Shown here in pieces: positions 9,753-64,000 of a DNA stretch of 64,000 nt (position 1 is its first letter; the number at the start of each line of letters is the position of its first letter). The notes below the pieces were generated by a model, which was given only the letters and a program-made list of their open reading frames with translations, did not search any database and was not told the DNA's origin. Source of the stretch: a virus. The translations under genes were made by a program, and so were the position numbers. The DNA lies in the IMG/VR virus record IMGVR_UViG_3300021178_000001, positions 1-64,000 of that record, one strand, 5' to 3'.

Positions 9753-9756
<4 letters not shown>
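7099..9756 (-). CDS. Cassette of about 9 small, tightly packed hypothetical genes
   Basis: Abutting or overlapping minus-strand ORFs such as 7099-7551, 7694-7936, 7938-8210, 8207-8596, 8759-9145, 9146-9475 and 9469-9756, several with ATGA-type overlaps. Confidence 0.65.
8759..9145 (-). CDS. HAD-superfamily phosphatase-like protein
   Basis: VCVDVDDTLV (DxD motif I), VVWSG (motif II), KP and LLDD motifs. Confidence 0.7.
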   Translation of the reverse strand: MQILKSDLVVCVDVDDTLVSWSQLEHIPECINIRGVIEIDFNDVKATYQVYSDNVESLMTHHHKGHYIVVWSGSGCEWALAVVEALKLEAYVDVVMAKPRWLLDDMKPEEFMPRPYWGAGDPGKAKIK

Positions 9757-10331
<575 letters not shown>

Positions 10332-15043: not shown

Positions 15044-15864
15044 TTGAAAATGGAAACAACTACACTTGTAGCAAGTCAAGAAACGAAGTCCAACGGAACG
15101 GGAACAGTTCCACAAACGGAGCAAAAGGACGCAGTTTTTGCTCTCGCACTCAGAGCTTTGGGTTCAAAACACGCGACGGGACAACCACTAAAGTCGCTCG
15201 TGACCAAAGAAGTCCGCAAGGCCATCCGCGTCGGATTGTACGAGGGCATCAAGGACGGCACGATCAAGTACTCGAAGGCCGGAAAGTCCGACGGACAACT
15301 CAAGAAGTACTGTTCTTCTTTGATCAACAACTGGCTCAAGAAAGATCCGCGCTTCAACTAGTATAATTTAACCATGAGCAAGAATCAAACTCAATCCGGT
15401 TTCTCTTACGAAGTCGGCGACAGAGTTCGAATTTGGACCATATTTAAACAGCCCGTTGGGTCGATACAAAAGATAACGGAAGAAGGATCGCTCAAAAAGT
15501 ACGAAGTGTACTACGTCTACCACGACGGAAGGTACTTCACGGACGTCTTTGACTTCGTTGATCTAACTCTAGTGGACCGACTGTACAACTGGGATCGCTG
15601 CACTTGCGGCAGCAATTCCGAGAAGCACTCGGACTACTGTTACAAGAAGACTAAGCTGAGAGGATGAAGATGGATACCTTAAAAAGATTGGGTCTAAAAG
15701 TGTTGGCGGCGATTGTTTCCGTGCTGTTCACCTCGTTCGTGACTTCTGTCACGGTCGGAGTGTTGAACCTACATGACTTCCGCTTAGTTGTGGCAGTGAT
15801 TATGGGAGCTCTAATGGTGACCCCATTTTATGAAATTTTGACGAGAGGCGAAGATTTAGAGTAG
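15044..15864 (+). CDS. Three small hypothetical genes (15044-15361; 15374-15667 with a CTCG...HSDYC motif; 15664-15864, two TM)
   Basis: ORF track; RBS, leaderless start or ATGA coupling. Confidence 0.6.
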
Positions 15865-15867
15865 AAT
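15838..15867 (+). promoter_or_regulatory. Sigma70-type promoter pointing into a non-coding region
   Basis: TTGACG (15838-15843), N18, TAGAAT (15862-15867). Confidence 0.65.
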
Positions 15868-15870
15868 TTG

Positions 15871-16160
15871 AGTGTCGCGGCGTTGATAATACTAGGCGGT
15901 CGGTGCGGTTGTACAGCTTCCCGACTTAGTAACAAGTTAATCCGACGCGACACTTAATCCCTGCACCTCTTCGGAGTTGTAGTCGGGAACGGTGATTCGA
16001 TCCGCTGGGGACTTGTTCTCGTTCGAGTCGAGCAATTGCCGTTCCTTACTAGGCACCTGTGCCCTTAACTGGGAATTAAAGTGCCGAAGAGCGCAACCTG
16101 CTCTGTGATTTCTAAGTTCGAACTTAGAGCGCCCAGTGGTTGGGTTGCTGCTAGCTTTTA
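15871..16160 (+). ncRNA. Candidate structured non-coding RNA of unknown family
   Basis: Many complementary segments, a C(UUCG)G tetraloop and T-loop-like hairpins; no credible + strand ORF; upstream promoter and downstream T/A-rich tract. Confidence 0.65.
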
Positions 16161-16307
16161 ATTTATTATCAAATACATGAGTGCGCACGCCTAATAATTT
16201 GAATGCCAAGTATTTAAATTTATTGAAACTCAACTTCGTAAATTTATATCAATTTCAAGAGTGTTCGCTCTTAATAATTCGACTTAACTTTCTGATACAA
16301 TTCCTAA

Positions 16308-17066
16308 ATGGACATCGAAGTTAAGTTAATAGCCGACGAGCTCGGAAAAGACCTGGAAAAAGCGGCTCCCCAAGTTCAAGCCGAGATCGAACGCGCCGTA
16401 GAAAACTTGGCGCACGCCGCTTACGCCGCCATCGTGGCTAAAATTCAGGGGATGTCCGCAGACCCCAAGAACCGCCAAGATTATCTAAAAGCTCTTAAGT
16501 TTCAAGATCTAGGCGACGCGACTTGGCTTATATACTTGGACGGAGAGTGGGCTTCTAAGCTCGAGGAAGGCTTCGGCCCGTACTCCATCAAGGACGTTCT
16601 CCTCAAGTCGACTAAGACTGTCCAAGTAGGCGCTAGAGCCGGGCTTCCTTGGGTTCGCAAGAACAAGCAAGGAAAAAAGTTCGCCAGCGTGCCGTTCGAG
16701 CACAAGCCGTTCTCGGGCGAGAAAATGTCGGGATCTTTAGCCGAAGACATCAAGAAGATTTTAGTCAAGAACCGAGCTGGTCAAGATCAGCCGATCACTA
16801 AGATCTTTCACGACTTGGGTGGGAAGCCGATCTCTGGTAAAGTCGCGACCGCCAACAACGTGGGCATAACTAATTTAGAGGGATTGACCAAGTACCAGTT
16901 CGTCCACGACTCGGGTAAAGTTTCGAGCGTTTACATGACTTACCGCACGGTTTCAGAAGACTCGACGGGATTTCAACACCCTGGACACAAAGGGTATCAG
17001 CTGTTCAAAGAAGCCGAACAATACGTTGAGTCCGAGATCAAGAACATACTCAATCAACTTCTCTAG
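16308..17066 (+). CDS. Virion morphogenesis (neck/tail-completion) protein
   Basis: Position before terminator and sheath genes; LEEG, VPFEH, YRTVS...HPG motifs typical of this gene class. Confidence 0.55.
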   Translation: MDIEVKLIADELGKDLEKAAPQVQAEIERAVENLAHAAYAAIVAKIQGMSADPKNRQDYLKALKFQDLGDATWLIYLDGEWASKLEEGFGPYSIKDVLLKSTKTVQVGARAGLPWVRKNKQGKKFASVPFEHKPFSGEKMSGSLAEDIKKILVKNRAGQDQPITKIFHDLGGKPISGKVATANNVGITNLEGLTKYQFVHDSGKVSSVYMTYRTVSEDSTGFQHPGHKGYQLFKEAEQYVESEIKNILNQLL

Positions 17067-17080
17067 GATATAATCTCAAA

Positions 17081-18016
17081 ATGGGCATTTCTTTACCTGA
17101 CTTAATCATAGAGTGCACGATTCGAGACGGCATAGAGTACTTGAAGGCTAACCCGTTAGTTCTTCAAGACATATTCTCGCCGTTGCTCAGCATGTACGCT
17201 TCCCGCAAGTACGGTCAAGCCGAAATCGACCGCATCAACTCTGTCTTACAGACCAAGACCATAGCGGTGGTTCACTCGTTTCACGAGGCGGAGGCTAAGT
17301 CCCCGTGCTACTCTATTCAACTAGGCTCTGAGGGCGAAGCCAAGGAACGAGCCAGAATCAACGACTTCGAGGCCGACGAGCAAGACACTCTGACGGGTTC
17401 TGCGCTACTCCCGTACGTCAAGATCAGCTCTTTGACTCCCACGGCTTACGACCCTCTGACGGGCAAAGTGTCGGTCTCCGACTCGGCCGACATGTCCATA
17501 GTCAACCATAAGTACATCTTCACGGACGGAGCCGACGTCGAGTTCGAGATCCAGCGCGGGTTCTCGAACGTTCCCGGCAACAAGTTCTTCTTCATCCTGA
17601 AACAACAGGTCGTGGACATAGTGCATCCCGGATCAATAAAGAGCTTCATAAACTACTCCCAGCACGAAGTTAAGAGCTACACTAGTCAAGTCAACATTTT
17701 GGTCGGAGTCCACTCCAAAGACGCGCTCTTGACCAAGTACTTGTACGTGATCCTTAAGTACATAATGGCCTCGCGGAAGCACGACTTAATTCAGCGCGGG
17801 ATGCTCAACTCGTCTTTTCAAGGGTCGGACTTCACCCGCGACTTGAGGTACGAGGGCGACATGGTCTTCACTAGGTTCTTCACCGTCTCGGGTCAGATAG
17901 ACGACTCTTGGCGCTCGGACAACGTGGACCTCGTCGACGCCGTTCAACTCAACTTACAGCCCGTAGATTTCGGGGAAGAGACCTCCGGGGACGACGAGAG
18001 CATTCCGGAGGACTAG
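17081..18016 (+). CDS. Probable tail terminator/neck protein
   Basis: Synteny immediately upstream of the sheath; 311 aa. Confidence 0.5.
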   Translation: MGISLPDLIIECTIRDGIEYLKANPLVLQDIFSPLLSMYASRKYGQAEIDRINSVLQTKTIAVVHSFHEAEAKSPCYSIQLGSEGEAKERARINDFEADEQDTLTGSALLPYVKISSLTPTAYDPLTGKVSVSDSADMSIVNHKYIFTDGADVEFEIQRGFSNVPGNKFFFILKQQVVDIVHPGSIKSFINYSQHEVKSYTSQVNILVGVHSKDALLTKYLYVILKYIMASRKHDLIQRGMLNSSFQGSDFTRDLRYEGDMVFTRFFTVSGQIDDSWRSDNVDLVDAVQLNLQPVDFGEETSGDDESIPED

Positions 18017-18054
18017 TCCAAGAGTTTATTGGCTAGTTTCGGTATAATTGAGCT

Positions 18055-18282
18055 ATGGAAAATAAGCGCCAAAAGAAATTACGCGCTCAGGTTTCCGAAG
18101 ATTCGAGTGAGAGCAAAAAGTTAAGTCAAGAGATTCCGTTCGAGCTCTTCTTCGCCAAGTGCGTGTTCGAGGGAAAACTCAAGTATTGGCAAAGAAAAGA
18201 GATCTTTGCGTTCTTCAAAGACATGAACTTGAGAGAAAAAGAAGACCTGACCACTTACGAAGCGACGCTCGAAAAGTTTTAA
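18055..18282 (+). CDS. Small hypothetical protein preceding the sheath
   Basis: ORF with TATAAT-N6-ATG start. Confidence 0.6.
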   Translation: MENKRQKKLRAQVSEDSSESKKLSQEIPFELFFAKCVFEGKLKYWQRKEIFAFFKDMNLREKEDLTTYEATLEKF

Positions 18283-18294
18283 TAGGAGAAACCA

Positions 18295-20151
18295 ATGGCC
18301 ATCGTAAAATCTTTCAACGGCAGAAGCATCAGAAAACCGGGCGCTTACTCTAAGTTCAGCGTAGACAACTCGGCTGGGTCTGACCTCGCCGCGAACGACG
18401 TTTTGTTTCTCGTGGGCGAGTCCGCCAACGGAGCTCCGGGATCTTCCGACGGCATTCAGTCCTTCGACGCCGCCAACTTGAGCGCGTTGATCGCCAAGTA
18501 CGGCACGGGTCCTCTAGTGGACTGCGCCGTCGCCTCGGTTCGTCCCTCGAAGTCTCCCGGAGTCGGCGGAGCTGGAAAAATTCTGGTGTTCAAGACCAAC
18601 GCCTCGGTGCAAGCTTCCGCGACTTTGCTCCAGAGCAGCAACCCTTACGCGAGCGTCTCGGGCAGCGCTTGGGGCAAGTCAGACAACTTTTACTCGGTGG
18701 TAGTTTCCGCCGGCGACTCCGCGAGTCAGAAAAACATCTCGGTCACGCAGCTCGGTGGAACGGTTGAGTCTCTCGGCGAGAACCTCGCTCAGAACGTGAT
18801 CAGCGTCCAGTACACCGGCAACGGTTCGGCCGCTACTTTGACGATCTCTGGGTTGACTCGCGCGGCTCTCACACTGACGACGGCTCTCACGGGTCAGTCC
18901 GACGGTTCCTTGAACTTGAGCGTTCCGCTCGCCAACAAGACGATCAAGCAACTCGTGGACTACGTCAACGCTCAACCGGGGTACGTAGCTTCCGTCGTGA
19001 CGGCTTCGCTGTCTTCGGGTCCAGCCAACCAGCTCGACCCCGTTTCGGCGGTAAACATCTTGGTCCTGAAAAACTTGCTCCAGCTCCAGCACGAGATCAT
19101 CACGCTCATCAACACTTCCGCCCGCGTTCAAGCCGTCGAACCTTCTCAACCCTTGGGATCAGTTCCGGACAACCAGACGAAAGCTTTGTCGGGTGGAGCT
19201 CAAGGCGCTTCGGCCAACTCTGACTTCTCGACCGCCTTCGCCAACTCCCTCGGCGAAGACTACAACGTGCTGTTGCCCTGCGTGTCTCGCGACGCTTCGG
19301 AAGACATCGCCGACGCTGTTTTAGGTTTCACTGACCCCTCTTCGAGCTACACCATCGCGGCCGTCATCGCGGCGGCTTCCTCTCACTTGACTCTTCGCGG
19401 CAACGTTCAGAACCGCAAAGAAGCTCAAGGAATGGGTGGAATCCGCAAGTCCACCAAGGCCGCAGCTTACGCCGCGATCAACAACGTGGCCGACTACAAC
19501 TTTCAGGTGGCCATGCAAGACGTCGTCTTCACTGACGCAGTCGGAGACATCGAAGTCGGTCACCCGCACGTCTTCGCCGCCATGTGCGCTGGAATTCGTC
19601 TCGGCACCGACGTCGGAACTCCGCTCACCCACAAGTTCTTGAACGTGCTCCAAGTGGGTCACTTCTTGAACCCAGCGACACTGCTTCCGACGGGAGACTT
19701 CAACCCCGGAGTGGACTACAACGACGCGATAACGAACGGCGTGCTCTTCTCCGAGAAGTTCGGTAACGGCAACCGCATCGTGGTGGACAACACGACTTAC
19801 GGCATCGACGGCTCCTTCGTGTTCAATCGTGGGTCAGTGATCGAAGCGAGCTACTTCGTGTTCAAGACTCTGCGAGACACTGCGGACTCGGTGTTCGTGG
19901 GCAACAAGACTTCCAAGGGTCTCGCCAAGTCGATCAAGAGCGCGATCCGCAACAAGTGTCGTGAACTCGCCGTTCCGGAAGTGAACATCATCACTCCGAG
20001 CGACGCGAACCCAGACGGAATCGTTGAGAAAACGTTCGTTGTCACGGTCGTAGGTAACACCGCGAGCGTGCAGCTAGAGTTCCAGCCTGTTCAAGGACTT
20101 GATTTCATCCTGTTGTCGTTCACCCTCGGCGACATCCAACAAACGGCTTAA
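18295..20151 (+). CDS. Contractile tail sheath protein
   Basis: N-terminal FNGRSIRKPGAYS, LVGES..G.P, LSGG..G, PLTHK and C-terminal PVQGLDFIL; 618 aa. Confidence 0.9.
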   Translation: MAIVKSFNGRSIRKPGAYSKFSVDNSAGSDLAANDVLFLVGESANGAPGSSDGIQSFDAANLSALIAKYGTGPLVDCAVASVRPSKSPGVGGAGKILVFKTNASVQASATLLQSSNPYASVSGSAWGKSDNFYSVVVSAGDSASQKNISVTQLGGTVESLGENLAQNVISVQYTGNGSAATLTISGLTRAALTLTTALTGQSDGSLNLSVPLANKTIKQLVDYVNAQPGYVASVVTASLSSGPANQLDPVSAVNILVLKNLLQLQHEIITLINTSARVQAVEPSQPLGSVPDNQTKALSGGAQGASANSDFSTAFANSLGEDYNVLLPCVSRDASEDIADAVLGFTDPSSSYTIAAVIAAASSHLTLRGNVQNRKEAQGMGGIRKSTKAAAYAAINNVADYNFQVAMQDVVFTDAVGDIEVGHPHVFAAMCAGIRLGTDVGTPLTHKFLNVLQVGHFLNPATLLPTGDFNPGVDYNDAITNGVLFSEKFGNGNRIVVDNTTYGIDGSFVFNRGSVIEASYFVFKTLRDTADSVFVGNKTSKGLAKSIKSAIRNKCRELAVPEVNIITPSDANPDGIVEKTFVVTVVGNTASVQLEFQPVQGLDFILLSFTLGDIQQTA

Positions 20152-22159: not shown

Positions 22160-22173
22160 GGTACAATGGGAGT

Positions 22174-23301
22174 ATGGAAAAGCTATGTAAGTCTTGTCTT
22201 TTGTTAAAAGATGAGTCGAAATTTCATAAAAGAAAGTCTTCACCCGACGGTTTAGCTCCAACTTGTAAAGAGTGTAGAAGTGCTGGTGAAGCTAAGTTTA
22301 GACTTAACAACGCAACTCGACTTCCAGAACTAAGAAAAGAATCTTATCGTAGAAACCGTAAAACTATATTAGCTCAAAAGAAAGAATACCACTCACTCAA
22401 CAAAGAAGCTATAAACACAAAGTCTAAGATTTGGGCTCAAGAAAATCGTGAGGAAAGCAACGCGAGACGCCGCGAAGATTATTCTAAGAATCCAGAGAAA
22501 TACAAAAAGAAGGTTAAGTCGTACGTCGACAGAAATAAAGAAAAGGTCACGAAGTATCGCACGAAATATTCGTGTGAAAGAAATCGTACGGACATTGAAT
22601 TTAAGCTTACTAGAAGTTTGCGATCTAGGATGCATCACGCCGTAGTCGGGAACCAAAAGGTTGGTTCCGCCGTCGACGACTTAGGATGCTCCATCGAAGA
22701 CTTTAAGACTTACATCAGCAAGCAGTTCAAGCCTGAAATGACTTGGGATAACTATGGTCCCGTGTGGCACCTAGACCACAAGAGGCCTTTGACTAAGTTT
22801 GCTCTCGAAGATCGCTTGCAGTTCTTAGAAGCCGCCCACTTCACTAACTACCAACCCATGTTTAAGTCCAACAACGTAAAGAAAGGCAACCGCCTCCCCA
22901 AAGTCTACTTTGTTTTTGGCTTGTTCGGCTCCGGCAAGACTACCTTAGTTAATTCCCTCAAGGATCGATTTCACGTCTTCTCGTACGACCAGTTCAGGTC
23001 ACACCCGATGGACGAGTTGACCAACCCTCCGGACTTCGACGTTCCTTCGTTGTACGAGACCCCGATGCTCGTGGGATCGTTCCTGAAGCGGTCCCGGGAG
23101 TTATTAGACGTGACCCCGATCTATCTCCGGGAACCCCTCGAAGTCATTCTGCAAAGGATCGAAGCTAGAAAGGGTGAAGTCGACGCCGAGCGGTTGGTCA
23201 AGCGAGCTCGGAGATTCGAGTCTTTGGCGCGGAAGTACGGCGCCTTCGTCGGGAACTACGCGGAAGTGGAAGAGTTCTTGAAGTCTAACCAAAAGAAATA
23301 A
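22174..23301 (+). CDS. HNH endonuclease fused to a C-terminal P-loop kinase-like domain
   Basis: CKSC...CKEC and MTWDNYG..WHLDH, then VYFVFGLFGSGKTT. Confidence 0.8.
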   Translation: MEKLCKSCLLLKDESKFHKRKSSPDGLAPTCKECRSAGEAKFRLNNATRLPELRKESYRRNRKTILAQKKEYHSLNKEAINTKSKIWAQENREESNARRREDYSKNPEKYKKKVKSYVDRNKEKVTKYRTKYSCERNRTDIEFKLTRSLRSRMHHAVVGNQKVGSAVDDLGCSIEDFKTYISKQFKPEMTWDNYGPVWHLDHKRPLTKFALEDRLQFLEAAHFTNYQPMFKSNNVKKGNRLPKVYFVFGLFGSGKTTLVNSLKDRFHVFSYDQFRSHPMDELTNPPDFDVPSLYETPMLVGSFLKRSRELLDVTPIYLREPLEVILQRIEARKGEVDAERLVKRARRFESLARKYGAFVGNYAEVEEFLKSNQKK

Positions 23302-48342: not shown

Positions 48343-50412
48343 ATGAGTCAAATTAAGACAAAAGGCATAACTGACAAGAACGTCACTGCCGCTAAGTTGG
48401 GCTCGGGTGCGGCAACCACTGGGCAAGTAGTCATAGCAGACGGTTCTGGCGGAGCTAGTTATTCCTCGACTCCCACACTTTCTGGTCCGGTGGTCGGTAC
48501 TCAGAGTTCTTCCGACAACAGCACTAAAGCGGCCTCGACTGCTTTCGTGGCGACGGCAATCACCAATGCTTTGGCTGCGTTTCAACCTCTCGAAGCAACC
48601 TACGCCGCTTCAACTACCAACATCGTCGGCACCTATGTGAACGGAGTCTCTGGAGTCGGAGCTACTTTCACCGTTACAGCGACCGGAGCATTCTCGATAG
48701 ACGGAGTTTCTCCACCGTCGGGATCCCGCGTCTTGTTGAAGGATCAGAGTTCTGGTTTTCAGAACGGAGTGTACGATCTAACTACTGTAGGTACTACAGG
48801 TATCTCTCCCGTTCTAACTAGATCTGCCGACTTCAACACTACTACTGCTATGAACGCCGGTGACTTAATTCCAGTCGTCAACGGTACCGCAAATGCCTTA
48901 ACTTCTTGGCTTCAAACCGCTACAATAACTACGATCGGGACAGACAGTTTAGTTTTTGCAGAGTACTCAAAGAACCCCTCTTCCTACGTGTCCAGCACTC
49001 TGACTAGCGCCCATATTTTGGTGGGCAACGGATCCAACGTTGCCACTGATGTTGCCGCTTCTGGTGATTTAACTTTAGCAAACACTGGTGCATTCACTAT
49101 AGCGAACAACGCGGTTACTAACACCAAGTTAGCTCAGATGGTAGCCAATACAGTAAAAGCCAACAACACGGGCAGTACGGCTAATGCGTCTGACGTAACT
49201 TTAACGGCGAATGCCACGGCATCTTCGGTTATGTCTCGCGATACCAACGCCAATACAACTGCGAACAGTTTCATAGAGGGTTATACCACTACCGCTAGTG
49301 CCGCTGGAACCACTACGCTTACTGTTGGTAGCACCGAACAACAGTACTTTACCGGGACGACCACTCAAACTGTCGTGTTGCCGGTAGTCAGTACTTTGGT
49401 CCTTGGTCAAAAGTTTCAAGTAGTCAATAACAGCACCGGAGTCGTGACAGTTCAGTCCAGTGGGGCAAACACAGTTCAAGCCATGGCTGCGAGTACCTCG
49501 GCTTGGTTCACTGTAATCCTAGTTACTGGAACCACGGCCGCTTCGTGGAGTACAGTCTACATCGCGGGCTCTATAAGTACGCCAGTAAGCGTCGCTAACG
49601 GAGGAACCGGAGATACGACGCTTACTGCCCACGGCGTGCTGATCGGCAACGGCACTAGCGCGGTGAGCGTGACCGGCACTGGTACAACTGGGCAAGTTCT
49701 AACATCTAACGGGTCGAGTGCTGATCCCACTTTCCAGACAGCTAGTGGTGGTTCTTCAACTGCGCCGACAGTTCAAACGTTCACTTCTGGATCAGGTACT
49801 TATACTAGACCAACCTCTCCTACTCCACTTTATCTACGAGTGAGAATGGTCGGAGGCGGAGGCGGAGGCGGGGGTGACGGCACTGGAAGCGGAGCAAACG
49901 GAACTAGTGGAACTGCGAGTACGTTTGGAACTTCTTTGCTAAGCGCCAACGGTGGTATTAGAGGTATTACGGGTCAGAGTAGTGGACAAGGAGGAAGACA
50001 AGCTACCCAAATTCCCACCATAAACAGTCCAGCAATCGGTACGGGAGTACCCGGAGGATCTGGAAATTCCGGAGGTACTGCCACGTCGTCGGCGAACGGT
50101 CTCGGCGGAACTGGCGGATGCTCCGGTATACTAGGAAGCGGCAGTGGAGAGGGTGGCGGAGGCGGTGGTGCTGGTGGAAACGCTGCTACTAATTCTGGTG
50201 GCGGAGGCGGTGGTGCTGGGTCTAATACTACCACTAACGGGGTTACGGGCGGAGGTGGTGGTGCTGGAGCTTCTGGTATAGACGCGATCATTCCAAGTCC
50301 AAGCGCAACGTACTCGTACACTGTCGGTACCGGTGGTACTGGTGGCGCCGGAGGCGTCACCGGCGGCAACGGCGCCGCGGGATATATTATAGTGGAAGAA
50401 CATTATCAATAA
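48343..50412 (+). CDS. Tail fibre protein with a Gly-rich C-terminal domain
   Basis: N-terminus similar to 46435; VANGGTG; MVGGGGGGG...G.IIVEE glycine-rich domain. Confidence 0.8.
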   Translation: MSQIKTKGITDKNVTAAKLGSGAATTGQVVIADGSGGASYSSTPTLSGPVVGTQSSSDNSTKAASTAFVATAITNALAAFQPLEATYAASTTNIVGTYVNGVSGVGATFTVTATGAFSIDGVSPPSGSRVLLKDQSSGFQNGVYDLTTVGTTGISPVLTRSADFNTTTAMNAGDLIPVVNGTANALTSWLQTATITTIGTDSLVFAEYSKNPSSYVSSTLTSAHILVGNGSNVATDVAASGDLTLANTGAFTIANNAVTNTKLAQMVANTVKANNTGSTANASDVTLTANATASSVMSRDTNANTTANSFIEGYTTTASAAGTTTLTVGSTEQQYFTGTTTQTVVLPVVSTLVLGQKFQVVNNSTGVVTVQSSGANTVQAMAASTSAWFTVILVTGTTAASWSTVYIAGSISTPVSVANGGTGDTTLTAHGVLIGNGTSAVSVTGTGTTGQVLTSNGSSADPTFQTASGGSSTAPTVQTFTSGSGTYTRPTSPTPLYLRVRMVGGGGGGGGDGTGSGANGTSGTASTFGTSLLSANGGIRGITGQSSGQGGRQATQIPTINSPAIGTGVPGGSGNSGGTATSSANGLGGTGGCSGILGSGSGEGGGGGGAGGNAATNSGGGGGGAGSNTTTNGVTGGGGGAGASGIDAIIPSPSATYSYTVGTGGTGGAGGVTGGNGAAGYIIVEEHYQ

Positions 50413-62038: not shown

Positions 62039-63814
62039 ATGTTCAAGCCAGTTGGATTTTCTGAAGTAATTTTTAAAGACAGATACGGTTTTACTAGTGA
62101 AGAAAGTTGGACCCAAGCTTGTCGCAGAGTTGCCAAACAAGCGGCCATAGCTGAGAAACCTCTAAAAGTAGAAGTCTACGAAGATAAATTCTACGACGAC
62201 TTAGTCAACAACTATTTCGTACCAGGCGGTCGCATTTGGTACAACTCTGGTCGTCCTAATCCTCAATTGCTAAATTGTTTCGTGTTGAACGAAGACCTCG
62301 ACTCCAAGGAAGGCTGGGGTCGTCTGTTGTACGAGAACGTCGTGACCGGAATGACTGGTGGTGGGTGCGGACAAGACTTCAGCGAGATCCGTCCCAACGG
62401 CGCCGAGATCAATGGTCACCGTGGAGTCTGTCCTGGACCTTTAGGTCTGATGCGCGGAGTGAATGCCGGTTCCCACATGGTGCGAGCTGGAGGCGGTCGT
62501 CGCGCCGCCAACATGTTTTCTGTAGATTCTACGCATCCGGACGTTTTAGAAATCATCGACGCCAAGCTCGTCAAGGGCGAGCTCGACATGGCTAACGTTT
62601 CCATACGATTCAAGAACGTCACCGGCTTCGTTAAAGCAGTCATAGAAGACGGATCGTGGGAACTTAGTTGGAAGGGTAAGTACAAGCGAGTTATTAAAGC
62701 TAGAGATCTATGGGACAAGATAGTGAGCAACGCCTGGAACAACGCCGAACCAGGCATCCTCAACATGGAACTAGCACTGTCTGAGAGCACTATTTACTAC
62801 ATAGAAGAGCTAATCACCACCAACCCATGTGGTGAGATCTTCTTGACTAAGTACGGAAACTGCTGTCTCGGACACTTAGTGCTAACACGTTTCATCAATA
62901 ATGGAAAAGTTAACTGGCAGTTATTAGGCGAAGTGATTCGCAACAGCGTTCGTTTCTTAGACAATATTCTGGACGTTAACTCATACCCGTTGCCTGAAAT
63001 GAAAGCAGCTTCGCAGAAACTTCGAAGAATTGGTCTAGGCACTACTGGACTCGCCGACATGCTAGCTATGCTTGGTATCAAGTACGGTTCGAAAGAAGGC
63101 AACGAGTTTAAGGACAAACTCTTCCGATTCATATCTAAAGCGTCCTACGAAGCCTCGGTGATGCTCGCCGTAGAAAAAGGAGCTTTCCCGGCTTGTAAGC
63201 CAGAGATGCATGTCAACTCCGGTTACGTAAAGCGCATGACCGATAAGATCCGTTCTCTCATCCGCGAACACGGTATCAGAAATTGTGCCTTGCTCACTCA
63301 GGCGCCGACGGGTACCGTATCGATCTTGTCGGGCAACTGCTCGTCCGGCATCGAACCCATGTTCGCGTTCGCTTACTGGAGAACTTACTGGGACGGAGAA
63401 GTACGCAAGTCTGAGCTGTGTTTTCACCCGTTGTTCGTAGAGTTCATGAATCAAGGCAAGTCGGTGGAACACTTCGTGGCTTCCCACGAGCTCTCAGTGC
63501 GAGACCACATGGAAGTTCAGAAAGTTATTCAGTACCACATCGACAACGCGTGCAGCAAGACTATAAACATGCCGGAGTGCTACCCAATAGAAGACATGGC
63601 CAAGCTATGGCTCGAGTACTTGCCGTTCCTCAAAGGCACGACTTTTTATCGAGAAAACTCTAGAAAGTTCATCAACGCCAAGGGTGAAGAGGAAGCGCCA
63701 CCGTTGACGCCGATTCCACTCGAAGAAGCGGTCCGACTGTACAAAGAGAAGTTAACCGCAAAAACTGAAGTGGCTGAAACTAATGATTGTCCAAATGGAA
63801 GTTGTAGTATATAA
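62039..63814 (+). CDS. nrdJ: Class II (B12-dependent) ribonucleotide reductase
   Basis: PGGRI, LLNCFV, RRAANM, TNPCGE, APTGT, SSGIEP, SKTIN, KGTTFYR (no class I YY pair) and a C-terminal Cys pair; no ATP cone. Confidence 0.88.
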   Translation: MFKPVGFSEVIFKDRYGFTSEESWTQACRRVAKQAAIAEKPLKVEVYEDKFYDDLVNNYFVPGGRIWYNSGRPNPQLLNCFVLNEDLDSKEGWGRLLYENVVTGMTGGGCGQDFSEIRPNGAEINGHRGVCPGPLGLMRGVNAGSHMVRAGGGRRAANMFSVDSTHPDVLEIIDAKLVKGELDMANVSIRFKNVTGFVKAVIEDGSWELSWKGKYKRVIKARDLWDKIVSNAWNNAEPGILNMELALSESTIYYIEELITTNPCGEIFLTKYGNCCLGHLVLTRFINNGKVNWQLLGEVIRNSVRFLDNILDVNSYPLPEMKAASQKLRRIGLGTTGLADMLAMLGIKYGSKEGNEFKDKLFRFISKASYEASVMLAVEKGAFPACKPEMHVNSGYVKRMTDKIRSLIREHGIRNCALLTQAPTGTVSILSGNCSSGIEPMFAFAYWRTYWDGEVRKSELCFHPLFVEFMNQGKSVEHFVASHELSVRDHMEVQKVIQYHIDNACSKTINMPECYPIEDMAKLWLEYLPFLKGTTFYRENSRKFINAKGEEEAPPLTPIPLEEAVRLYKEKLTAKTEVAETNDCPNGSCSI

Positions 63815-63821
63815 TTAATCT

Positions 63822-64000
63822 ATGCATGATTCTAGAACTAAAGGATTTAAATCTCAAGAATTAATTTCTAAGGAAGAGTTAGAACTTTATGATGGCTCAA
63901 CTAATAAAGAAATATCGGTGAAAACGGGAAGATCTATTTATATAGTTAAGAGATCTCTAATCCATCATGGACTTTACGTAGGAAAAGTTTATTTTACAAA
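63822..64000 (+). CDS. 5' end of an AT-rich ORF running off the window (possibly another homing endonuclease)
   Basis: TATAAT-N6-ATG; frame open to the window end (MHDSRTKGFKSQELISKEEL...). Confidence 0.5.
   Translation, partial: MHDSRTKGFKSQELISKEELELYDGSTNKEISVKTGRSIYIVKRSLIHHGLYVGKVYFT

What the first reader, a model, noticed from the sequence alone, without database searches (positions are those of the whole stretch)
15838..16170. Unassigned ~290-nt structured RNA with its own promoter, alternative/pseudoknot pairings and T-loop-like hairpins
Seen: this is the largest gap without a credible ORF in the window, headed by TTGACG-N18-TAGAAT (predicted +1 near 15874). Pairings: AGTGTCGCG 15871-79 with CGCGACACT 15946-54, enclosing a rod (ACTA/TAGT, GGTCGG/CCGACT). 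Competing or pseudoknot pairs: TTCCCGACT 15918-26 with AGTCGGGAA 15981-89, and AACAAGT 15931-37 with ACTTGTT 16011-17. Hairpins: CTC-TTCG-GAG, CTCG-TTCGAGT-CGAG (tRNA T-arm-like), GGCAC...GTGCC, AGAGC...GCTCT, TCTAAG-TTCGAA-CTTAGA and GCCCA...TGGGT, then a T/A-rich tract. G-U pairs favour the + strand. I find no tRNA cloverleaf and no tmRNA, RNase P or SRP signature. Inference: a new phage ncRNA, such as a tRNA-mimic decoy, a switch, or a virion-assembly RNA given its position before the neck genes.
Basis: partly seen in the sequence, partly recalled or inferred. Interest (0 to 1): 0.74.

Follow-up and report, generated by a model that had tools for sequence, protein, structure and literature searches.

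The report
Orphan hairpin-rich spacer in soil phage
A 443-base gene-free stretch in a 114-kb soil phage does fold into unusually stable RNA hairpins, but it is a young, lineage-specific insert at a recombination hot spot, with no relatives and no convincing promoter of its own, so it is more likely a structured tail of the upstream transcript than a new RNA gene.

Summary
The + strand of 15868-16160 folds better than shuffles (z -3.5 to -3.9; - strand -2.0). The 161-nt part at 15990-16150 reaches z -4.4. No Rfam, tRNA or tmRNA match was found, and the antisense ORF has no homologue among 1.84 billion proteins.

The block is an orphan. Eight related phages with the same flanking genes carry unrelated DNA at this spot: nothing, other hairpins, small ORFs, or a GIY-YIG nuclease gene. 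No copy turned up in any collection.

One roughly 93-96% identical soil variant keeps 15865-16160 but lacks the AT-rich 16161-16281. It carries nine indels. Two of them lengthen the UUCG hairpin; the others disturb the four-way junction.

The "own promoter" is no better than chance for this genome, and its predicted start would cut the 5' helix. The phage's real promoters are leaderless, TGnTAYAAT-N6-ATG.

Best reading (0.4): a lineage-specific structured 3' trailer of the upstream two-gene transcript, lying in a promoter-flanked plastic spacer. Rivals are a free-standing ncRNA (0.2) and a functionless remnant (0.3). A virion-assembly role and tRNA mimicry are not supported. Covariation and expression could not be tested.

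The parts
15362..15373 (+). Leaderless-type promoter (TATAAT + 6 nt) of the upstream two-gene unit (97-aa gene 15374-15667, 66-aa membrane-protein gene 15664-15864). This is the likely source of transcripts that enter the block.
   Evidence: TATAAT-N6-ATG, conserved upstream of the homologous gene in L002, L003, L007 and L015.
15838..15867 (+). Sigma-70-like match TTGACG-N18-TAGAAT, lying inside the 3' end of the 66-aa gene. TAG is that gene's stop codon.
   Evidence: The genome-wide count of such matches is not above shuffles. TAGAAT is also present in L002 and L007 as Leu-Glu-stop.
15868..15957 (+). Domain 1: a 90-nt irregular rod hairpin closed by a 12-bp helix (15868-79 / 15946-57). It starts 4 nt after the stop codon.
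   Evidence: helix probability 0.96; z -2.9 on +, -2.3 on -. The X2 variant has no indels here.
15958..15989 (+). Domain 2: a hairpin capped by a C(UUCG)G tetraloop, with a 3-nt bulge GUC.
   Evidence: The two X2 indels (+C after 15958, -C15984) add a C-G pair and shrink the bulge. MFE goes from -10.8 to -16.1 kcal/mol.
15990..16150 (+). Domain 3: a four-way junction closed by an 11+8-bp G-U-rich helix. Its arms are 16010-29, 16030-16103 and 16110-29; the last is an 18-bp perfect palindrome.
   Evidence: (-64.2 kcal/mol, z -4.43, MFE equals centroid) against (- strand z -1.88). Helix probabilities are above 0.9. Seven X2 indels lie in its 5' half with none on the partner strands.
16151..16172 (+). 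U/A-rich tract after domain 3 (CUAGCUUUUAAUUUAUUAUCAA). It is not a canonical terminator tail.
   Evidence: For contrast, a canonical terminator sits in the same genome at about 100,487-100,526.
16159..16282 (.). AT-rich (28% GC) tail made of an imperfect 80-nt tandem duplication. 16161-16281 is absent from the X2 variant.
   Evidence: D1: 16159-16202 and 16239-16282, 73%; joint 16160 to 16282; composition.
16281..16307 (+). Conserved leaderless promoter of the 252-aa gene: GACTTAAC-N4-TGATACAAT-N6-ATG. It is the only part of the gap shared with relatives.
15937..16233 (-). Antisense 98-aa ORF (TTG start), rejected as a gene.
   Evidence: No homologue (0 of 1.84 billion). No Pfam or PHROG match. 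Codon score 1.7. In X2 the start and first 24 codons are deleted and the net indel is -7 nt.

Best explanation
The 296-nt block (15865-16160) is a young, lineage-specific, non-coding insert. It sits in a plastic spacer immediately upstream of the conserved leaderless promoter of the 252-aa structural-module gene.

It is most likely transcribed by read-through from the upstream leaderless two-gene unit (promoter at 15362-67; 97-aa and 66-aa genes). On that reading it is a long structured 3' trailer made of a 90-nt rod, a UUCG-capped hairpin and a four-way junction.

Inferred function: it acts in cis as a 3'-end barrier. That would protect the upstream mRNA from 3' exonucleases, and would pause or leakily terminate RNA polymerase before it runs over the next promoter.

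Shown: it is non-coding, it has + strand structure above chance, it is absent from relatives, and it is kept in one close variant. Inferred: how it is transcribed and what it does in cis.
For: 1. Domain 1's closing helix starts at 15868, 4 nt after the stop codon. It uses bases that a transcript started from the sigma-70-like site (about 15873-75) would lack. The complete fold therefore exists only in read-through RNA.
2. No terminator-like site lies between the 15374 gene start and the block.
3. Sigma-70-type matches are not enriched in this genome: 15 against 13-26 in shuffles. The promoters conserved across relatives are TGnTAYAAT-N6-ATG, and none of them precedes the block.
4. The position is a hot spot. 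Eight relatives carry a 51-bp gap (L007), an unrelated 279-bp spacer of three perfect hairpins with z -4.6 (L002), a small ORF plus a canonical terminator (L011), a GIY-YIG gene (L009), other ORFs (L010, L004), or direct abutment of the genes (L003, L015).
5. A hairpin or terminator just before this promoter recurs in non-homologous form in L002, L007 and L011.
6. The close variant X2 keeps 15865-16160. Its two indels in domain 2 together stabilise that hairpin.
Against: There are no transcript data of any kind. No canonical stem-plus-U-tract terminator lies in the block, although this phage has one elsewhere. In L003 and L015 the upstream and downstream genes abut with no spacer at all, so no barrier is needed at this junction in general. 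A well-defined 161-nt four-way junction with strong strand asymmetry is more elaborate than a barrier needs. The block diverges at least as fast as its coding flanks in X2: 27 substitutions plus 13 gapped letters in 374 nt, against 3-6% in the flanks. That also fits no function at all.
Confidence: 0.4

Rival explanations
1. A free-standing or 3'-UTR-processed trans-acting phage ncRNA of about 290 nt (rod + UUCG hairpin + four-way junction) with an unknown target. This is essentially the first reader's idea, without the tRNA-mimic and virion-assembly specifics.
For: The + strand z-score is -3.5 to -3.9. Domain 3 reaches z -4.4 with MFE equal to centroid, against -1.9 on the - strand. A 10-of-12 sigma-70 match sits exactly at the 5' edge, and a U/A-rich tract follows the fold. 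The block is retained in the X2 variant while the adjacent 121 nt are lost. The two indels in domain 2 behave as structure-improving. This phage has already captured one RNA gene, a tmRNA at 104850-105258.
Against: No homologue was found in any collection, so there is no covariation evidence. The promoter match is at chance level and would truncate the 5' helix. There is no canonical terminator. Seven unmatched indels in the 5' half of domain 3 change its predicted fold in the nearest variant: -64.2 to -53.5 kcal/mol, with the closing helix lost. All more distant relatives lack it.
Confidence: 0.2
2. A functionless remnant: DNA left by a recent insertion or illegitimate recombination at the hot spot. 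Possible sources are the relic of a mobile-element cassette or a captured fragment of a structured RNA gene. It would be transcribed passively and be decaying.
For: It is an orphan sequence at a site where relatives hold a homing-endonuclease gene and other unrelated inserts. Its substitution rate is at least that of the flanks, and it has nine indels against a 93-96% identical strain. The adjacent tail is a sloppy tandem duplication that the variant lacks. Its GC content (51%) differs from the upstream genes (44%).
Against: Random or decayed DNA should not fold with z near -4 on one strand only. The block persists in at least three further soil runs from different studies: identical pieces in X3 and X4, and a variant in X2. 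Phage genomes rarely keep 300 nt of useless DNA.
Confidence: 0.3
3. A DNA-level element, such as an operator or binding-site cluster, an origin, or a recombination site, that uses the perfect palindromes (for example TCTAAGTTCGAACTTAGA).
For: An 18-bp perfect palindrome, palindromic through its centre, lies at 16111-16128. There are also four TCGA cores and several 9-bp inverted repeats.
Against: The main helices depend on G-U pairs and are much weaker on the - strand. No motif from the block is repeated elsewhere in the genome. Relatives lack it.
Confidence: 0.07
4. The antisense ORF 15937-16233 encodes a 98-aa protein.
For: An open frame of 98 codons is somewhat unlikely by chance in 443 nt.
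Against: There are no homologues in 5.8 billion clustered proteins or 1.84 billion representatives, and no Pfam or PHROG match. It has a TTG start and a poor codon score. The X2 variant deletes its start and shifts its frame.
Confidence: 0.01

Closest known systems
PeSL cassettes (promoter-early stem-loop; composite terminator/promoter motifs) of T4-like phages (PMC2839356, PMC4122927)
   Same: Promoter-plus-hairpin sequence lies at a hyperplastic point where close relatives differ by insertions, deletions and replacements. In L002 a similar ~25-nt promoter motif flanks the variable segment on both sides.
   Different: PeSLs are described as small motifs that recur within a genome. The 296-nt block here is unique in its genome, far larger, and not itself the repeated unit. 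The phage is not T4-like: its tail sheath is about 25% identical to SPO1-type sheaths.
Structured 3' UTRs, terminator clusters and 3'-UTR-derived sRNAs of bacterial operons (general knowledge)
   Same: It sits directly after a stop codon, co-directional with the operon, and carries stable hairpins including a C(UUCG)G tetraloop.
   Different: It has no canonical stem-plus-U-tract end. Processing and stability are untested.
tRNA-like or T-loop RNAs (tRNA, the tmRNA tRNA-like domain, bacterial Y RNA YrlA)
   Same: Domain 3 has a four-way-junction (cloverleaf-like) topology, and TTCGA occurs three times in or near hairpin loops.
   Different: No match to Rfam tRNA, tmRNA or any other model, even at E<=10. 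ARAGORN finds nothing down to 90% thresholds. The arm lengths are unlike a tRNA, and the T-arm-like hairpin is not in the thermodynamic ensemble.
phi29 prohead RNA (pRNA), the known virion-assembly RNA (general knowledge)
   Different: pRNA is conserved across its phage group together with the packaging motor. This block is absent from every relative that carries the same structural genes.

Membership tests
Any Rfam 15 family (4227 covariance models) | Score at or above the family's gathering threshold | tested here: not met
   0 matches in the whole window; at E<=10 on 15700-16400 the only match is a spurious SCARNA7 hit (8.5 bits against 65) on the - strand of the AT-rich tail.
tRNA / tRNA-like | Cloverleaf with a 7-nt T-loop on a 5-bp stem, an anticodon arm and an acceptor stem, as scored by ARAGORN or Rfam RF00005 | tested here: not met
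   (none at default or 90% thresholds; only a two-base-anticodon artefact at 80%). (no tRNA match at E<=10).
tmRNA (standard or permuted) | tRNA-like domain plus a tag reading frame | tested here: not met
   ARAGORN does find the phage's real tmRNA at 104850-105258 with the same program, so the method works on this genome.
Intrinsic (Rho-independent) terminator | G+C-rich stem-loop followed within 0-2 nt by a U-tract | tested here: not met
   the only + strand candidate in the block is AGAGC..GCUCU followed by GUGAUUUCUA, which is weak. After domain 3 the U run starts 5 nt downstream. A textbook example exists elsewhere in the genome.
Independent RNA gene | Own promoter whose start site is compatible with the fold | tested here: inconclusive
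   A 10/12 match is present, but such matches are not above shuffles genome-wide. The predicted +1 would remove 15868-73 from the 12-bp closing helix.
Independent RNA gene | Conservation with compensatory base changes in homologues | not testable with these tools
   No homologue was retrievable. 
PeSL-type mobile regulatory cassette | Lies at an indel or replacement point between related genomes | tested here: met
   every relative differs at this exact spot.
PeSL-type mobile regulatory cassette | Small composite promoter/terminator motif that recurs within the genome | tested here: not met
   The 296-nt block has no second copy in the genome. Only the downstream promoter motif recurs.
Protein-coding gene (antisense ORF) | Homologues, or a frame preserved in close variants | tested here: not met

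The most novel reading that the evidence does not exclude
The block is a real, orphan phage ncRNA of about 290 nt. It would be released from the 3' end of the upstream transcript or made from the sigma-70-like early promoter. Its four-way junction and UUCG hairpin would act in trans, for example as a decoy or sponge for a host RNA-binding or RNA-cleaving factor. It would have been acquired recently, like this phage's tmRNA.
Probability: 0.15. Interest if true: 0.6.

Novelty: new member of a known kind. Interest (0 to 1): 0.25.

Why it matters
If the block were a trans-acting RNA, it would be a new phage ncRNA class from an uncultured soil myophage that also carries a tmRNA and its own RpoD-like sigma factor. 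As the evidence stands, its value is mainly as an example of turnover. The spacer in front of a conserved leaderless promoter is a hot spot where unrelated hairpin-rich DNA, small genes and a homing-endonuclease gene come and go between related phages. It is also a caution: fold z-scores near -4 and a good-looking promoter do not by themselves make an RNA gene.

Tried and rejected
- **Rfam.** Searches at gathering thresholds and at E<=10 found nothing. ARAGORN at default and relaxed thresholds gave only artefacts at 80% or lower.
- **DNA similarity.** blastn against phages, twice, and against plasmids gave no match.
- **Exact or gapped pattern scans.** Five patterns from the block were run on IMG/VR and one on GTDB genomes. 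The only hit was the 20-mer palindrome in an unrelated contig (L013 8328-8347), at the stop codon of an unrelated gene with no flanking similarity. I treat it as chance: about 0.1-0.2 such hits are expected, by my rough estimate of collection size.
- **Whole-record search of three relatives.** Nothing found.
- **Protein-anchored locus searches.** In viral contigs, metagenome contigs and genome contigs these gave eight distinct relatives, none with the block.
- **Closest relatives.** The closest relatives seen at protein level (P0002-P0008, 81-83%) could not be fetched.
- **Sequencing runs.** No RNA holder was listed. Only soil DNA runs kept as contigs were available, so nothing can be said about expression.
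- **X2 variant.** Read laying listed the variant's indels but cut its substitutions in the block from the table. Covariation could not be counted.
- **Gene remnant.** Six-frame comparison with all pieces of the related loci gave only noise.
- **MITE-like reading of domain 1** (15-nt inverted ends). No other copy was found anywhere.
- **Stop-codon read-through or TAG recoding into the in-frame 30-codon extension.** Not conserved in relatives, and later TAA stops remain. Dropped.
- **Small leaderless peptide from TTG 15868** (29 aa). Too short and only weakly hydrophobic. Dropped.
- **Not built.** No covariance model was made from the single sequence, because no searchable set of close genomes was left.

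Full report
**Setting.** The window is the first 64 kb of a complete 114,255-bp IMG/VR virus record with direct terminal repeats. Public runs that hold it are soil metagenomes. The finding lies in a 443-bp gap (15865-16307). Upstream is a 66-aa membrane-protein gene (15664-15864, +). Downstream is a conserved 252-aa gene (16308-17066, +; phrog_16819, function unknown). Then come a 311-aa protein with weak, sub-threshold similarity to the Pfam SP10_terminator (phage termination protein) family, and the tail sheath at 18295. Further upstream are a ThyA-like gene, a dNMP-kinase-like gene and two small genes.

- The + strand of 15865-16175 folds at -110.7 kcal/mol (z -3.83; 0 of 100 dinucleotide shuffles as good). 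The - strand gives -86.7 (z -2.04). For 15868-16160 the + strand z is -3.5.
- The fold has three parts:
  - a 90-nt rod closed by a 12-bp helix (15868-79 / 15946-57);
  - a C(UUCG)G-capped hairpin (15958-89);
  - a 161-nt four-way junction (15990-16150) closed by an 11+8-bp helix with seven G-U pairs.
- The junction alone has z -4.43 on the + strand, with MFE equal to centroid, against -1.88 on the - strand.
- In a genome-wide scan of 1520 windows of 300 nt, the windows covering the region rank 14th and 17th on the + strand. Several higher-ranked windows are low-complexity coding sequence: a poly-Ala/Tyr protein and a Gly-rich fibre end.
- So the structure is above chance at roughly the 1% level, and it is specific to the + strand.
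They compete with stronger nested helices and have about zero probability in the ensemble.

**Known families.** Rfam 15 gives nothing at gathering thresholds over the window, and nothing credible at E<=10 over the gap. ARAGORN finds no tRNA or tmRNA at default or 90% thresholds. The same program does find the phage's real tmRNA at 104850-105258.

**Coding potential.**
- The antisense 98-aa ORF has no homologue in the 5.8-billion-cluster collection.
- It has none among 1.84 billion representatives read by HMMER.
- It has no Pfam or PHROG match.
- Its codon score is poor.
- All other frames are broken by stops.

**Relatives.** Searches anchored on the 252-aa protein recovered eight distinct related loci at 51-77% protein identity. 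None contains the block. Only the last ~28 nt before the ATG are shared. At the same position the relatives have:
- a 51-bp gap (L007);
- an unrelated 279-bp spacer of three perfect hairpins that is itself strongly structured, z -4.6 and -4.8 on the two strands (L002);
- an 86-aa ORF, a canonical terminator and a promoter followed by a 110-nt leader (L011);
- a GIY-YIG endonuclease-like gene (L009);
- other ORFs (L010 and L004);
- no spacer at all, the upstream gene's stop overlapping the start (L003 and L015).

The site is therefore a hot spot of insertion and replacement, and the block is an orphan. Pattern scans, blastn and whole-record searches found no other copy anywhere.

**The one close variant.** Contigs of a second soil run (X2) cover the area at about 93-97% identity.
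- A 491-nt contig spans 15787-16160 with 27 substitutions and 13 gapped letters, then joins directly to 16282. So the structured block is kept, while the AT-rich 16161-16281 is absent. That AT-rich stretch is an imperfect 80-nt tandem duplication.
- The deletion and a net -7-nt indel balance destroy the antisense ORF.
- There are nine indels in all, and none lies in domain 1.
- Two lie on opposite strands of domain 2 (+C after 15958, -C15984). Applying only the reported indels in a script, without printing the sequence, stabilises domain 2 from -10.8 to -16.1 kcal/mol by adding a C-G pair and shrinking the bulge. This is a hint of selection for that hairpin.
- The other seven lie in the 5' half of domain 3, with no partner indels on the 3' strands. 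With indels alone, domain 3 refolds differently (-64.2 to -53.5 kcal/mol, closing helix lost). The whole block nevertheless stays strongly structured (z -3.3).
- The substitutions in the block were not listed, so covariation could not be counted.
- Third-codon-position differences dominate in the neighbouring gene: 32 of the 36 listed differences between 16676 and 17033 (my count). The two phages are therefore well diverged at silent sites. The block's 7% substitutions lie between constrained and neutral.

**Transcription.**
- The TTGACG-N18-TAGAAT match is real. However, matches of that quality number 15 in the genome against 13-26 in block shuffles.
- Its TAGAAT is the Leu-Glu-stop context that L002 and L007 also have without the block.
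- A start 6-8 nt after it would remove 15868-73 from the 12-bp helix that closes domain 1.
- The promoters actually conserved in this phage group are TGnTAYAAT followed by 6 nt and the ATG, which gives leaderless mRNAs. Some carry an upstream ACTTAACTTT element. Such promoters precede genes at 15374, 16308, 17081, 18055, 22174, 63822, 80822 and 100561 and their homologues.
- The 252-aa gene therefore has its own promoter at 16293-16301, so the block is not its leader.
- The upstream unit starts at the leaderless promoter at 15362-67 and has no terminator before the block. The block is thus most simply the 3' trailer of that transcript.

**Interpretation.**
- I commit, at 0.4, to a lineage-specific structured 3' trailer in a promoter-flanked plastic spacer. 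It would act in cis as a 3'-end barrier or leaky terminator ahead of the next promoter.
- A hairpin or terminator just before this promoter recurs in non-homologous form in L002, L007 and L011. This supports a positional, replaceable function.
- The arrangement resembles the promoter/terminator cassettes (PeSLs) that mark indel points in T4-like phages (PMC2839356, PMC4122927). The block is not itself a repeated cassette.
- The rivals are a free-standing or processed trans-acting ncRNA (0.2), a functionless remnant of a recent insertion (0.3), a DNA-level element (0.07) and the antisense protein (0.01).
- The virion-assembly idea is rejected, because relatives with the same neck and tail genes lack the block.
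- The tRNA-mimic idea has no support from any tRNA model.

**Limits.**
- No RNA run was available.
- The host is unknown.
- The verdict could move substantially once the X2 contig or those relatives are aligned.

Noticed in passing
window 15362-15376, 16293-16310, 17069-17083, 18043-18057, 22162-22176, 63810-63824; also L002, L003, L004, L007, L010, L015: Many genes of this phage and its relatives start 6 nt after a (TG)nTAYAAT element with no Shine-Dalgarno sequence, which implies leaderless mRNAs. A subset also has an ACTTAACTTT element 3-5 nt upstream of the extended -10. In L011 the same promoter is instead followed by a 110-nt leader.
   Followed up: partly
whole genome (G000); e.g. window 16281, 18127(-), 27804, 32850(-), 53033: The 8-mers GACTTAAC (20 occurrences) and ACTTAACT (27) are 6-8 times over-represented against about 3.5 expected. 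Most copies lie inside coding regions and on both strands, so this is not simply the promoter element. The cause is unknown.
   Followed up: partly
window 16159-16282: The AT-rich (28% GC) tail is an imperfect tandem duplication: 44-nt copies at 16159 and 16239 (73% identical) plus a 24-nt pair at 16199 and 16223. 16161-16281 is cleanly absent from a 93-97% identical variant in another soil run.
   Followed up: yes
L009 3364-4002: In one relative a 212-aa ORF occupies the hot spot and overlaps the start of the 252-aa gene homologue. By eye it has a GIY-YIG-type N-terminus (FYVYLH...YIGKGRG). It was not run against Pfam.
   Followed up: no
L002 3594-3850: The unrelated spacer at the same position in a 77% relative consists of three perfect hairpins (10-, 9- and 16-bp stems). 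It folds with z -4.6 and -4.8 on the two strands, so the structure there is strand-symmetric, unlike in the window.
   Followed up: partly
L013 8328-8347: The 20-mer TCTAAGTTCGAACTTAGAGC (the palindromic hairpin at window 16111-16130) occurs exactly once in IMG/VR. It overlaps the stop codon of an unrelated 414-aa gene in an unrelated contig. This is probably chance.
   Followed up: partly
window 9753-10331 (-) and 49900-50412 (+): The strongest fold-energy and strand-asymmetry outliers in the genome are low-complexity coding sequence. One is a protein with a ~70-residue Ala/Tyr run (AAAYAAY...) at 70-75% GC. The other is a Gly/Ser/Thr-rich C-terminus of a 689-aa protein. Both are composition artefacts for RNA-structure scans.
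   Followed up: partly
genome coordinates ~100,487-100,526 (outside the window): A textbook bidirectional intrinsic terminator (A-run, 12-bp GC-rich stem, T-run) follows a 472-aa gene and precedes a leaderless promoter at 100,546. It shows that the host uses canonical terminators.
   Followed up: no
window 15865-15957, frame of the 66-aa gene: The frame of the 66-aa membrane-protein gene stays open for 30 codons beyond its TAG stop (NLSVAALIILGG...). A stable hairpin starts 4 nt after the stop. This read-through-like layout is not conserved in relatives.
   Followed up: partly
L003 3401-4010 and L015 2687-3010, versus window 15374-16310: Gene order around the hot spot differs between lineages. 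In L003 the small membrane-protein gene precedes the 101-aa gene. In L003 and L015 the 101-aa gene abuts the 252-aa gene homologue directly (TAAATG in L015).
   Followed up: partly
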